Positions 1 to 37,632 of a stretch of 64,000 nucleotides of DNA are shown piece by piece; positions within the stretch are counted from its first letter, which is position 1, and each line of letters begins with the position of its first letter. The position numbers were made by a program, and so were the translations under genes. Below the pieces are notes generated by a model. It worked only from the letters and a program-made list of their open reading frames with translations. It was not told the origin of the DNA and ran no database searches. This stretch comes from a virus: positions 1-64,000 of IMG/VR virus record IMGVR_UViG_3300042988_000510, one strand, 5' to 3'.

Positions 1-303
1 GTCGGCGGATGACATATAGCTCTCGACCTGGGCCGCATTTTCACTCGGCAGGAGGATGCGGTAGTTGCCCTTGGTCTGCGCCAGATACTTGCCCTCGCGG
101 AGCAAGATTTTCCTGACGTAATCCACCGCCGACAATTCTTGCATGCTCAGTTCCTGGAAGGTGACCATTGGGGCGACCTCCGGGACCTCGATACCGATCA
201 CGCTGCGGACGGCATCTGACGGGATGAATGCGCCATACTGATCCAGCTTATTGCGCCTGAAGTATTCCAGCAGTTCACGTGCTGGGTTCTTTTTGTCAGT
301 CAT
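1..303 (-). CDS. Hypothetical protein (3' truncated by window edge), coupled to the RAMP-like gene
   Basis: ATG at 303 overlaps the end of 296..895; the frame is open to base 1 (MTDKKNPARELLEYFRRNKLDQYGAFIPSDAVRSVIGIEVPEV...). It is missing from the ORF track because there is no stop in the window. Confidence 0.75.
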   Translation of the reverse strand, partial: MTDKKNPARELLEYFRRNKLDQYGAFIPSDAVRSVIGIEVPEVAPMVTFQELSMQELSAVDYVRKILLREGKYLAQTKGNYRILLPSENAAQVESYMSSAD

Positions 304-895
304 GCGTGATCTCCGCTTGTGCGCGGCCGAAGGTCGGGCGGAAATCTCCGAACCCGCCATACATCGCGGCATGCTTGGCAATGTCTGACAGAGATTCTGC
401 GTCGATCAGATTGTCGTCAAACTCGATGGCCGTTTTGAATGACCACTCATGAAATATCGGGGCCGCCTTGACCACGCGGACCTGGCCTTGCTTGAGGGTC
501 AGATTGATGCGGAAGTCAGGATTGCCGACGATATCCTCCGGAGTTTTGACCTTGTCTTTGTCACGGAACATGAGGGGGATTTTGTCCTCGGTGGCGAACA
601 CCGATCCACGCACATCAGCCTTGCTGACTTTGGCTTTCTTGAAGCTGGTCGCGGCAATGGCTGCCATCAGCCAACTGGAAGGCACGTAAATGCCGACACG
701 GTCATCCCAGAAAATCTTGGCTCTGACCTCTATATCCTGCAGGTCCCGGTAATCCTCATCGGTGCGCCGGGTTTTCTTGGCGTTGATCTTCGCCATGGCC
801 TTGGTAAAAGGGTTGAACCTGTCAACCGTCTGCGGATTGTTTTGCAGGAGCGGATTGATGCCGGTGACGGCGATGGTCATTTGTCGGATGGACAT
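296..895 (-). CDS. Stand-alone RAMP/Cas7-like RNA-binding protein (199 aa)
   Basis: RAMP-like motif order: N-terminal strand with 'GINPLL', then 'GIYVPSSWLMAAI' (cf. xIPGSSLKGxxR), 'APIFHEWSF', and a C-terminal glycine-rich loop 'GGFGDFRPTFGR'. Confidence 0.7.
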   Translation of the reverse strand: MSIRQMTIAVTGINPLLQNNPQTVDRFNPFTKAMAKINAKKTRRTDEDYRDLQDIEVRAKIFWDDRVGIYVPSSWLMAAIAATSFKKAKVSKADVRGSVFATEDKIPLMFRDKDKVKTPEDIVGNPDFRINLTLKQGQVRVVKAAPIFHEWSFKTAIEFDDNLIDAESLSDIAKHAAMYGGFGDFRPTFGRAQAEITHD

Positions 896-920: not shown

Positions 921-1328
921 AAACCCGCGTCGATTGTCGGCGCGAGAGTGTGAGGATTGACCCTCGGTTATCGCACTGATTGCCAATGCGATAACCGCGT
1001 TTCATTCAGATTCATTTCGGTGCTCCGCCTTACGTTTCGATGCGATGCGCCGCCTTACGCTGCGCTTGAGGACTGATCCTCGGCATTGCCCACTCAAAGA
1101 ATGAGCAACCCGCGATTCATTCCCATTCGTTGCTATGCTCTGCGATTTGTTGCTGCGCAGTGCGACGCCTTAACTTGCCGTTCCTTGCGATGCGATGCCA
1201 GTCGATGCACCTTGGGGACCGTTCCCCGGTATTACCCACTCGCAAGAATGGGTAACCCGCGTATCGGTCAGGATCGATGCTGTGCGTAGCACGGCATTCC
1301 ACTGATTTCCGGTGCGTTGCAATCCAGA
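921..1328 (-). ncRNA. Putative guide-RNA array: 5-nt-periodic tracts separated by conserved double hairpins
   Basis: Tracts at 996-1065, 1111-1210 and 1258-1327 contain 14, 20 and 14 pentamers. Double hairpins lie at 952-996, 1068-1110 and 1214-1257. Stem mismatches become G-U pairs only on the minus strand. Confidence 0.75.
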
Positions 1329-1334
1329 AAACAC

Positions 1335-1376
1335 ATTCTCTCACTGGCCGTGCCAGAAGTCAATAGCAATGCTATT
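1335..1376 (-). promoter_or_regulatory. Sigma70-like promoter for the array/RAMP operon, with overlapping palindromic operator
   Basis: Minus strand TTGACT(1363-1358)-17 nt-GAGAAT(1340-1335) with a TGn extension; palindrome AATAGCAATGCTATT at 1362-1376. Confidence 0.7.
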
Positions 1377-11427: not shown

Positions 11428-12231
11428 GTGAACGCAAAAGTAGCACAGCTATGCGACCAGGACATCAGCCAAGTCAAGCATCTGCTGTCGCTTGGCTACC
11501 GGCCCCTGGAAATCTCCGAGATTCTCGGCCTGAAGTCTGAACCGCAGATCCGGGCGATTGGCGAGATCAGCAACCAGCCTGGGTTCCGGAAATGGTCGCG
11601 GGGTACCGAGGTGCATGGCCAGGCCCGGCGGCGCGGGGGGATGTATACGCCGTGAAGGACGTCAACTTCTGCCGTGGGTGCCGCAGGCACGTGCTCTCGA
11701 CCGAAGGCAAGGTGGAAGTGGTTCGCTACGTGGCTAATGGCCAGCGGCGGACCATGACCCGTTTTGTGTGCCCTTCCTGTCAGGCAAAAAGGAAGGGGCG
11801 GCGATGAATCCGCATGTGGCGCAGAAGCTGTTTCAGGAGTTGACCAATGCCGAGTTGGCGCATCTCGAGACCGGCGTCCAGCACGCTGCGTTTCTGTCGA
11901 TGCGCCGGCATCGTTACAACGGTGAGGCTCGTCGTGAACTGGACAAGATCATAGCTCTGGGGTCCGGCTGCGGCCGGTTTGTCGGGGTTTTTTTGGCTGA
12001 ATTTGAGGGGGACTACTGATGGATTGGGTGAAGAAGGTTTTGGATCACGTTCCTGGTGTGAGCGTGATGGAGCGTAAGGAGGGTCTGGTGATCTTCGCCG
12101 AAGACTACAAACTGATCGTCGAGCGGATTGCCGGTATGTGGCGATTCCAGGAGTCGAAGTCGGACAAGCCGAACCGGGAGTGTCACTTTGATCTGCGTCG
12201 TCAAATTCACATGGTGCTGAATCATGGGTAG
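11428..12231 (+). CDS. Four small coupled hypothetical proteins (11428..11655, 11652..11807, 11804..12019, 12019..12231)
   Basis: Chain of overlapping stop/start codons. Confidence 0.5.
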
Positions 12232-37604: not shown

Positions 37605-37632
37605 TTGCTTCTGTGAATAGCATTGCTATTAT
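37605..37632 (+). promoter_or_regulatory. Promoter and operator of an accessory operon
   Basis: TTGCTT-16 nt-TATTAT; AATAGCATTGCTATT at 37616-37630. Confidence 0.65.

What the first reader, a model, noticed from the sequence alone, without database searches (positions are those of the whole stretch)
996..1327. Pentamer tracts may spell a gapped dinucleotide code, possibly skipping codon wobble positions
Seen (+ strand). 996-1065: cgcGT ttcAT tcaGA ttcAT ttcGG tgcTC cgcCT tacGT ttcGA tgcGA tgcGC cgcCT tacGC tgcGC. 1111-1210: cgcGA ttcAT tccCA ttcGT tgcTA tgcTC tgcGA tttGT tgcTG cgcAG tgcGA cgcCT taaCT tgcCG ttcCT tgcGA tgcGA tgcCA gtcGA tgcAC. 1258-1327: cgcGT atcGG tcaGG atcGA tgcTG tgcGT agcAC ggcAT tccAC tgaTT tccGG tgcGT tgcAA tccAG. 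Position 3 is C in 43 of 48 units and 27 of 48 triplets are xGC, with no indel breaking the phase, while positions 4-5 vary. Inference: read as NNx codons these give V[IM][DE][IM]GSLV[DE][DE]ALAA, [DE][IM][HQ]VYS[DE]V[WC][RS][DE]LLRL[DE][DE][HQ][DE]T and VGG[DE][WC]VT[IM]T[FL]GV[KN][RS]. Also, 24 of 48 dinucleotides start with G, like codon position 1. Targeting that ignores third positions would resist synonymous escape. Caveats: any dinucleotide maps to some residue, and the G excess could just be a partly conserved fourth scaffold base. I found no match among this window's proteins by eye.
Basis: partly seen in the sequence, partly recalled or inferred. Interest (0 to 1): 0.85.

Follow-up and report, generated by a model that had tools for sequence, protein, structure and literature searches.

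The report
Phage VIPR guide-RNA array, GCA type

Summary
All counts reproduce, and the three tracts are the only places in the 64-kb window with 12 or more of 14 period-5 C.

The tracts lie on the minus strand, where they read (NN-GCA)n. Each ends in a conserved handle and a covarying hairpin. They sit between a promoter and a 199-aa gene.

That protein is a homologue of the SUSP1 Vipr protein (PDB 36pp, E 2.7e-23; family profile E 1.7e-65). VIPR preprints of 2026 show that the NN dinucleotides pair with DNA while every third target base, usually the codon wobble, is skipped.

Tested here:
- Across 67 related tracts, NN carries 0.01-0.04 bits and GCA 1.0-1.6 bits.
- Contigs of a near-identical freshwater relative keep the hairpins but change the NN.
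- A guide from related phages gave 23 exact one-base-skip hits, 23 of 23 in codon frame in one satellite helicase gene. Two control patterns gave 0 hits.

No target was found for this phage's own guides.

The locus is a new member of a known kind, with GCA in place of GGY. This scan has found VIPR arrays on other DNA before, including GCA-type ones.

The parts
1335..1376 (-). Promoter-like site (TTGACT, 17 nt, GAGAAT with TG before it; 1363 to 1335). It is overlapped by a 15-nt palindrome (1376 to 1362) that recurs at 37616 and 89218 of the genome.
   Evidence: the only promoter-like site in 250-1500; shuffles give a mean of 0.8, so this is a consensus match only; three copies of the palindrome in the 90-kb genome.
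1258..1327 (-). vrRNA A repeat tract, 14 pentamers. It starts about 7 nt after the -10 hexamer. About 10 variable units are followed by handle units ending in ACGCG.
1211..1257 (-). Tail of vrRNA A: a conserved hairpin plus a second short hairpin that ends where the next tract begins.
   Evidence: z -3.2; 0 of 200 shuffles fold as well. (15 pairs, 11 with compensatory changes in 18 tails).
1111..1210 (-). vrRNA B repeat tract, 20 pentamers (about 16 variable units plus handle).
1066..1110 (-). Tail of vrRNA B (two hairpins).
996..1065 (-). vrRNA C repeat tract, 14 pentamers (about 10 variable units plus handle).
945..995 (-). Tail of vrRNA C (two hairpins), followed by the leader of vipr.
296..895 (-). 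vipr gene: 199-aa Vipr protein (a RAMP/Cas7-like protein that polymerises on the repeat RNA).
   Evidence: E 2.7e-23 to PDB 36pp_D 'SUSP1 Vipr protein', residues 5-197 against 3-190; family profile E 1.7e-65; phrog_4652; no Pfam family.
1..303 (-). First 101 codons of the accessory gene (vap candidate). It overlaps the end of vipr and runs over the circular junction of the contig to genome position 89762.
   Evidence: weak similarity to the gene after vipr in Felix O1-like phage wV8 (E 0.001, 24% over 84 aa); the Vibrio phage counterpart hits the same PHROG (phrog_5926, 2.2e-5).

Best explanation
The tracts are three guide-RNA (vrRNA) genes of a VIPR system carried by a freshwater phage of about 90 kb.

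Layout. A phage promoter drives transcription of the minus strand through three units, then through vipr and an accessory gene. Each unit is a run of NN-GCA pentamers, then a conserved handle ending in ACGCG, then a hairpin tail. A second array of four guides follows the accessory gene, just outside the window.

Mechanism, by homology with the SUSP1 system. One Vipr protomer binds each pentamer, hides the fixed GCA and presents the two variable bases. These bases pair with double-stranded DNA that carries the complementary dinucleotides separated by one skipped base. The skipped base usually falls on the codon wobble position, so synonymous mutations do not escape. Binding silences transcription of the target, which is most likely a gene of a competing satellite or phage.

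What is shown here: family membership; the anatomy; hypervariable NN against a fixed scaffold; the structured tail; and the one-base-skip, wobble-phased rule for guides of related GCA-type phages.

What is inferred: expression and processing of these RNAs, filament formation, DNA silencing by this particular system, and what its seven guides are aimed at.
For: 1. Protein.
- The 199-aa product aligns end to end with the solved SUSP1 Vipr protein (E 2.7e-23). A profile of 94 homologues hits it at E 1.7e-65.
- The G-loop residues D177 and R179 of SUSP1 are kept in 24 of 24 GCA-type relatives.

2. Association.
- Homologues occur in 130 phage records and 1,631 cluster representatives.
- In 23 of 27 sources examined, my filter found 69 NN-GCA tracts on the gene's strand beside the gene. 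L004-L006 have more degenerate period-5 tracts, and L003 has GGY-like tracts.

3. Information content.
- In 67 unique tracts (737 units), positions 1-5 carry 0.04, 0.01, 1.59, 0.97 and 1.45 bits.

4. Hypervariable guides.
- Twenty vrRNA pairs from 7 locus pairs (Vipr 80-92% identical) share 141 of 426 NN bases and 509 of 639 scaffold bases.
- A freshwater-metagenome contig matches 803-1007 with 4 differences, then runs on unlike the window. It keeps C at every fifth base with six other dinucleotides. The same happens at 1123 (tables 7 and 8).

5. Code.
- The guide shared by L004/L005 and L009, written with one-base gaps, hit 23 viral contigs. 23 of 23 hits lie in frame 0 on one motif of an AAA_25 helicase gene, with varying wobble bases.
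- Reversed order gave 0 hits and a two-base gap gave 0 hits.
- Other guides of L009/L010 hit the same elements only at skip 1: 25 of 26 bases over 13 units, and 19 of 20 bases.

6. RNA strand and tail.
- The tail hairpin has 15 pairs, 11 with compensatory changes. A U-G pair is present in 18 of 18 tails and would be a C-A mismatch on the other strand.
- A promoter-like site lies on the minus strand.

7. Literature.
- The mechanism was shown for SUSP1 and P. fulva VIPR.
Against: No target was found for any of this phage's own guides:
- Own genome: nothing above shuffles at skips 0-2.
- Exact one-base-skip patterns from guides A, B and C gave 0 hits in viral contigs.
- An 8-unit piece of B gave 30 hits, all chance: at most 2 of the 12 preceding units matched.
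- A 12-unit piece of B gave 0 hits in metagenome contigs.
- The 10-unit guide C gave 9 metagenome hits in about 6 unrelated contexts, with no second guide converging on them.
- The four downstream guides have no local match.

Other weaknesses:
- These searches need exact matches or cover small samples, so they are weak tests. But the code is undemonstrated for these particular tracts.
- The scaffold is GCA, not the GGY on which all experiments were done. Only 18 of 36 presumed guide units of A, B and C are exactly GCA, counted by eye from the minus-strand units printed. Guide A looks eroded.
- There are no expression data.
Confidence: 0.9

Rival explanations
1. The tracts are a protein-binding scaffold or sponge RNA. 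A multimer reads the GCA triplets, as TRAP of Bacillus reads spaced GAG/UAG triplets, and the two bases between triplets are neutral spacers with no coding role.
For: This was my first reading: fixed triplets with 2-nt spacers beside a conserved small protein. No target was found for this phage's guides. The description of TRAP is recalled and comes from no call.
Against: A related GCA-type guide spells one gene motif in 23 of 23 hits, in codon phase, while two controls give 0. Further guides of the same arrays converge on the same elements only at skip 1. The homologous SUSP1 system was reprogrammed by changing NN alone.
Confidence: 0.03
2. It is a VIPR system, but in this GCA class the physiological target is messenger RNA, not double-stranded DNA.
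For: In the 23 exact hits the guide is complementary to the coding strand, so it could also pair with the mRNA. The cryo-EM preprint reports that SUSP1 VIPR can form a guide-RNA duplex with single-stranded RNA.
Against: The same preprint finds mostly incomplete filaments on RNA and a DNA-dependent triplex. The residues that clamp DNA in SUSP1 (K33, R39) are K in 22 of 24 and K/R in 22 of 24 GCA-type proteins. The published type II targets lie on both strands. Only one target site here has an unambiguous strand.
Confidence: 0.06
3. The array is partly decayed or serves as a decoy. Some guides, above all A with 4 of 10 GCA units, no longer direct silencing. Alternatively they redirect a rival's Vipr, as published for satellite-borne solo guides.
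For: The scaffold of A and C is degenerate. No targets were found. Orphan guides exist: L022/L023 keep two tracts beside a vipr truncated after about 40 codons. Solo guides that act as decoys are reported in 10.64898/2026.10.15.759431 (abstract).
Against: vipr and the accessory gene are intact. G at scaffold position 1 is kept in 43 of 48 units. The hairpin tails are intact and covary.
Confidence: 0.1

Closest known systems
Type II VIPR system of Escherichia phage SUSP1 (Vipr, vap1, vrRNAs; bioRxiv 10.64898/2026.04.26.720920, .720927 and 10.64898/2026.10.15.759431; PDB 36pp)
   Same: - Homologous Vipr protein over its full length.
- Pentamer repeats with three fixed and two hypervariable bases, and a structured 3' tail.
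- Arrays on both sides of vipr-vap, as in the published SUSP1 locus.
- An accessory gene weakly similar to the gene after vipr in the SUSP1-like phage wV8.
- Phage-borne.
- Related guides follow the one-base-skip, wobble-phased rule and hit a satellite.
   Different: - The fixed triplet is G-C/A-A, not G-G-pyrimidine.
- The protein is about 29% identical.
- The SUSP1 residues that read G2 and Y3 are replaced in all GCA-type proteins examined: H17 to N in 24 of 24, E71 position to W in 24 of 24, R138 to A/V/F in 24 of 24, W178 to F in 22 of 24.
- The tail is a hairpin pair. The pseudoknot of SUSP1 was not tested.
- One tract has 20 units, against the published 9-16.
- The two arrays use different handles.
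Non-canonical VIPR repeats listed in print (NNNGG, YNNNG, NNNNG in 10.64898/2026.04.26.720920 Methods; GAC/NN, CAC/NN, WGT/NN, TGH/NN in 10.64898/2026.10.21.760802)
   Same: A 5-nt period with a Vipr-like protein nearby and a fixed part other than GGY.
   Different: GCA/NN is not named in the text of either preprint: the word GCA occurs 0 times in each. It may be shown in figures or supplements that I could not see. G-C-A-N-N would fit the published 'YNNNG' class.
Class 1 CRISPR effector backbones (Cas7 filaments on crRNA)
   Same: A RAMP protein polymerises along a guide and flips out bases at a fixed period. The array alternates variable parts with structured constant parts. This is as stated in the VIPR preprints.
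   Different: - Period 5 with three guide bases hidden, against period 6 with one.
- The target is read 2 bases in 3.
- The guide part itself has a sequence constraint.
- I did not scan the window for cas genes or for an adaptation module.
TRAP-type RNA-binding multimers (Bacillus trp attenuation protein; recalled, from no call)
   Same: Spaced triplets with 2-3 nt spacers, bound one per subunit.
   Different: Here the spacers carry the information, and the protein is a RAMP homologue. Rejected as an explanation.

Membership tests
VIPR system | A Vipr protein: a small (about 20 kDa) RAMP homologue related to characterised Vipr proteins | tested here: met
   phmmer E 2.7e-23 to PDB 36pp_D SUSP1 Vipr over residues 5-197. 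Profile E 1.7e-65.
VIPR system | G-loop and RNA-contact residues of Vipr | tested here: met
   D177 and R179 equivalents are invariant in 24 of 24. The residues that read G2 and Y3 are replaced, in step with the changed triplet (residue roles).
VIPR system | vrRNA genes made of tandem pentamers with a conserved trinucleotide and a hypervariable NN | tested here: met
   Information is 0.04 and 0.01 bits at NN against 1.59, 0.97 and 1.45 bits at GCA in 737 units. NN differ in near relatives. The triplet is GCA, not canonical GGY.
VIPR system | A conserved structured 3' tail after the repeat tract | tested here: met
   Hairpin of 15 pairs, 11 with compensatory changes across 18 tails. Each of the three window stretches folded (tail plus adjoining tract units) folds better than all 200 shuffles. 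A pseudoknot was not tested.
VIPR system | An adjacent accessory (vap) gene | tested here: inconclusive
   A gene overlaps the end of vipr. Its similarity to the wV8 gene after vipr is weak (E 0.001). No Pfam or PHROG hit of its own.
VIPR system | Guides match natural DNA targets with one skipped base per two read, usually on the codon wobble | tested here: inconclusive
   Met for guides of related GCA-type phages: 23 hits against 0 and 0, with 23 of 23 in frame. Further guides hit at 25 of 26 and 19 of 20 bases. No target was found for the window's own guides.
VIPR system | vrRNAs are expressed and co-purify with Vipr; the complex silences matching DNA | not testable with these tools
   No run listed for this DNA is on record as RNA. 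This needs bench work.
CRISPR-Cas | A repeat-spacer array of identical direct repeats with unconstrained spacers, plus cas genes including adaptation genes | not tested
   The variable parts here are themselves 5-nt periodic. The genes next to the array are a YqaJ-type exonuclease and RecT. The rest of the window was not scanned for cas genes.

The most novel reading that the evidence does not exclude
The GCA/NN systems may be a natural, orthogonal scaffold class of VIPR. Four coordinated substitutions in Vipr would re-wire recognition of the hidden triplet from G-G-Y to G-C-A while keeping the one-base-skip code. In the window protein these are N19; W75 (or S74, one residue apart in the alignment); A145; and F185. 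They stand in place of SUSP1 H17, E71, R138 and W178.

In this phage, one protein would then serve two arrays with different 3' handles: three guides upstream and four downstream. The class would be used by temperate-type freshwater and marine phages mainly against capsid-forming satellite islands, by silencing their replicative helicase at an invariant motif.
Probability: 0.35. Interest if true: 0.55.

Novelty: new member of a known kind. Interest (0 to 1): 0.35.

Why it matters
The finding shows that a reader working from raw sequence recovered the logic of a newly described RNA-guided system. That logic is a gapped two-in-three code that ignores wobble bases.

For the field, the locus adds three things:
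- A well-populated scaffold variant (GCA in place of GGY) with matching changes in the base-reading residues. This could give orthogonal guide scaffolds for multiplexed use.
- Natural evidence that the one-base-skip rule holds outside the GGY systems tested at the bench.
- A second kind of satellite as a target. Elements of about 10-16 kb, with capsid-forming-island gene content in the one annotated, are hit in their replication helicase.

It does not open a new question, because the system and its code are already in print.

Tried and rejected
Known RNA families and DNA similarity
- Rfam with permissive thresholds on 850-1450: 0 matches.
- blastn of 900-1400 against phage records: no match.
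- Tandem Repeats Finder does not report the tracts.

My first idea
- A TRAP-like RNA-binding multimer with neutral spacers. Dropped.

Target searches for the window's own guides, all without a credible hit
- Own 90-kb genome, all 5 registers and gaps 0-3: nothing above shuffled order except the locus itself at gap 3.
This string includes handle units, so it was a poor test.
- Viral contigs: 12 units of B, 10 units of C, 10 units of A: 0 each.
- Viral contigs: 8 units of B gave 30 hits, none with more than 2 of 12 further units matching.
- Metagenome contigs: 12 units of B gave 0.
- Metagenome contigs: 10 units of C gave 9 hits in about 6 unrelated sequence contexts, with no convergence of A or B. 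I read these as chance.
- Window guides against the 23 satellite-like loci: best 15 of 20, 21 of 32 and 17 of 20, no better than control loci.
- The four downstream guides against all local sequence: nothing.
- All-against-all of 69 tracts on the first 26 loci plus the genome: nothing beyond duplicates.

Sequencing runs
- No RNA holder is listed for this DNA.
- Parts of the stretch without contig cover in runs X3-X5 (table 2) are not used as evidence. Only the contigs that run on unlike the window are used.

- Structure prediction. No model and no fold search were made. The PDB sequence searches stand in.
- The look-up of encoding contigs. The closest relatives (77-91% identical proteins) could not be fetched. 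Read laying gave a view of a near relative instead.

Not visible to me
The type assignment of this clade, the logos of types I and III-VII (fig. S17), the target tables (data S3) and fig. S10 of the language-model preprint may already show GCA/NN arrays and their targets.

Codon-like base composition of NN over all tracts is weak and fits a mixture of strands. I draw no conclusion from it.

Full report
Observation. Among 63,930 sliding 70-nt windows of the 64-kb window, only 14 have 12 or more of 14 C at period 5. All 14 lie in these tracts, and the best window elsewhere has 11. The signal is real and confined to this spot.

Anatomy. The tracts fill the gap between a YqaJ/RecE-type exonuclease gene (1379-2914) and a 199-aa ORF (296-895). 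Both genes are on the minus strand, and RecT lies further upstream. Read on the minus strand, each unit is NN-G-C/A-A. Each tract ends in units of the type nnGAA followed by ACGCG. A hairpin of 13-15 pairs follows, then a second short hairpin that stops where the next tract begins. The only promoter-like site in 250-1500 lies on the minus strand at 1363-1335, about 7 nt before the first pentamer. It is overlapped by a palindrome that recurs twice in the genome. The genome is one contig of 90,100 bases whose first 139 bases recur at its end, so it is circular or terminally redundant, with 58% G+C. The runs that hold it are freshwater metagenomes.

Identity. The 199-aa protein has no Pfam family and belongs to PHROG 4652, of unknown function. 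It matches one solved protein, chain 36pp_D 'SUSP1 Vipr protein', at E 2.7e-23 over residues 5-197. A profile of 94 homologues matches that chain at E 1.7e-65. A full-text search for pentanucleotide repeats in phage noncoding RNA led to the preprint that defines VIPR systems.

What the preprints say. I read the Introduction, Results, Discussion and two Methods parts of 10.64898/2026.04.26.720920.
- Vipr is a RAMP protein of about 20 kDa.
- vrRNAs are 9-16 pentamers in which GGY alternates with hypervariable NN, followed by a structured tail.
- The NN pair with double-stranded DNA under a one-base-skip rule, and the skipped base mostly falls on the codon wobble.
- The natural targets are satellites and prophages.
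The cryo-EM preprint (.720927, first part of Results) shows one protomer per repeat and names the residues that hold G1, G2 and Y3. A third preprint (10.64898/2026.10.15.759431, abstract and first part of Results) shows that SUSP1 needs VIPR to grow on satellite-bearing cells.

Conservation. tblastn finds the protein in 130 phage records, among them Felix O1-like phages, Vibrio phage 1.266.O and Listonella phage phiHSIC. HMMER finds 1,631 cluster representatives. I fetched 3 annotated records, 20 IMG/VR loci and 3 genome loci.
- In 23 of 27 sources my filter found 69 NN-GCA tracts on the strand of the gene and next to it.
- L004-L006 carry more degenerate period-5 tracts, and the Felix O1-like locus carries GGY-like tracts.
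- Over 67 unique tracts, the two variable positions hold 0.04 and 0.01 bits, and G, C and A hold 1.59, 0.97 and 1.45 bits.
- The tail hairpin has 15 predicted pairs, 11 of them with compensatory changes. It also has a U-G pair in 18 of 18 tails, which fixes the RNA strand.

Are the dinucleotides programmable or structural? I compared 20 vrRNA pairs from 7 locus pairs whose Vipr proteins are 80-92% identical. NN identity is 141 of 426 and scaffold identity is 509 of 639. Tails reach 39 of 40 identical bases.

A closer relative appears in another freshwater metagenome. A 302-nt contig matches 803-1007 with 4 differences and then runs on unlike the window. It still has C at every fifth base, but with six other dinucleotides. 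A second contig does the same from 1123 (tables 7 and 8). So the guides turn over while the protein, handle and hairpins stay.

Testing the code. For the window's own guides I found nothing credible: not in the genome itself, nor with six exact gapped patterns in the viral and metagenome collections, nor in 401 genomes with a pattern that I now think was badly chosen.

I then took a guide that is shared, at 8 of 9 dinucleotides, by L004/L005 and L009. Written with one-base gaps, it hit 23 viral contigs. In 23 of 23 the match lies in frame 0 of an open frame on the motif KSNIGPD[DGE]GGF, and the gap bases vary between hits. The same dinucleotides in reversed order gave 0 hits, and with two-base gaps 0 hits.

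In the one hit element I annotated, the gene is an AAA_25 replicative-helicase-type gene. That element is 11.4 kb and also carries integrase, a primase zinc finger, capsid, prohead protease, portal, HNH, and small and large terminase. That is the gene set given for capsid-forming PICI satellites (PMC10085698, passages). Absence of tail genes was not tested beyond the contig's size.

Other guides of L009 and L010 match the same set of contigs only at a gap of one base. One matches 25 of 26 bases over the first 13 units of a 17-unit guide. Another matches 19 of 20. Control loci give at most 22 of 34 and 16 of 20. The one-base-skip, wobble-phased rule therefore holds for GCA-type guides, and at least this sub-clade aims at a satellite.

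The scaffold variant. I aligned 24 GCA-type proteins with the Felix O1-like Vipr (residue roles).
- The SUSP1 residue that contacts G1 through the G-loop (D177) and R179 are invariant.
- H17 is N in 24 of 24.
- The E71 pocket position is W in 24 of 24. The two alignments place it one residue apart.
- R138 is A, V or F in 24 of 24.
- W178 is F in 22 of 24.
G1 is the base that stays G in the GCA unit, and the two changed bases are the ones whose readers changed. This fit is an inference from alignment.

The text of the two preprints that list non-canonical repeats does not name GCA. Figures and supplements were not visible to me.

Rest of the locus. The gene after vipr overlaps its end and runs over the contig junction. 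It has no family hit and only weak similarity to the gene after vipr in phage wV8. Behind it, at genome 89,760-89,290 and outside the window, lie four more period-5 tracts. They have a different handle (nnGGA AAGCA A/CAGCG), each with its own hairpin pair. The phage thus has seven guides in two arrays.

Verdict. The locus is a genuine VIPR system of a GCA-scaffold clade. It is a new member of a kind that has been in print since April 2026 and that this scan has met many times, GCA-type arrays included. What its guides silence remains open.

Noticed in passing
genome G000 89,290-89,760 (locus L089 1290-1760), minus strand; outside the window, across the contig junction: A second array of four period-5 guide tracts lies downstream of the accessory gene. 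It has its own handle (nnGGA AAGCA A/CAGCG), a hairpin, and a conserved CCGGTGGGTTTTCACC-like second hairpin. A fifth tract without a handle runs into the next promoter.
   Followed up: partly
window 1362-1376, window 37616-37630, genome 89218-89232: The 15-nt palindrome AATAGC(A/T)(A/T)TGCTATT occurs three times in the 90-kb genome. Two of the copies abut a TTGACT hexamer. It is a likely operator of a phage repressor.
   Followed up: partly
L022 and L023, 2269-2432 and 2501-2626: Two IMG/VR contigs keep two NN-GCA guide tracts, but the vipr reading frame is homologous for only about 40 codons and then diverges. This looks like orphan guides beside a truncated vipr.
   Followed up: partly
L057-L079 (23 IMG/VR loci, most from contigs of 5-17 kb): A family of elements, of which the one annotated (L058) has capsid-forming-satellite gene content: integrase, primase, AAA_25 helicase, capsid, protease, portal, HNH and terminases. 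At least three or four guides of phages L009, L010 and L004 target the family.
   Followed up: partly
L002 3614-3895 (Listonella phage phiHSIC ORF21) and L003 2762-2819, 4155-4212 (wV8 repeat DR_4): The annotated ORF21 of phiHSIC lies on the opposite strand over three guide tracts and is probably spurious. The DR_4 repeats annotated in wV8 coincide with vrRNA tails.
   Followed up: no
genome G000 1-139 and 89962-90100: The contig's first 139 bases recur at its end. The genome is circular or terminally redundant, about 89,961 bp.
   Followed up: yes
window 11573-11640: A short run with G at period 5 (11 or more of 14). It has no fixed triplet and lies in GC-rich sequence, so it is probably chance.
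   Followed up: partly
L008 1330-1544: A 15-nt periodic DNA repeat (CTGGC CGGCG CCnAT)n lies upstream of the VIPR locus. It probably codes for a pentapeptide-repeat protein and is unrelated to the guides.
   Followed up: no
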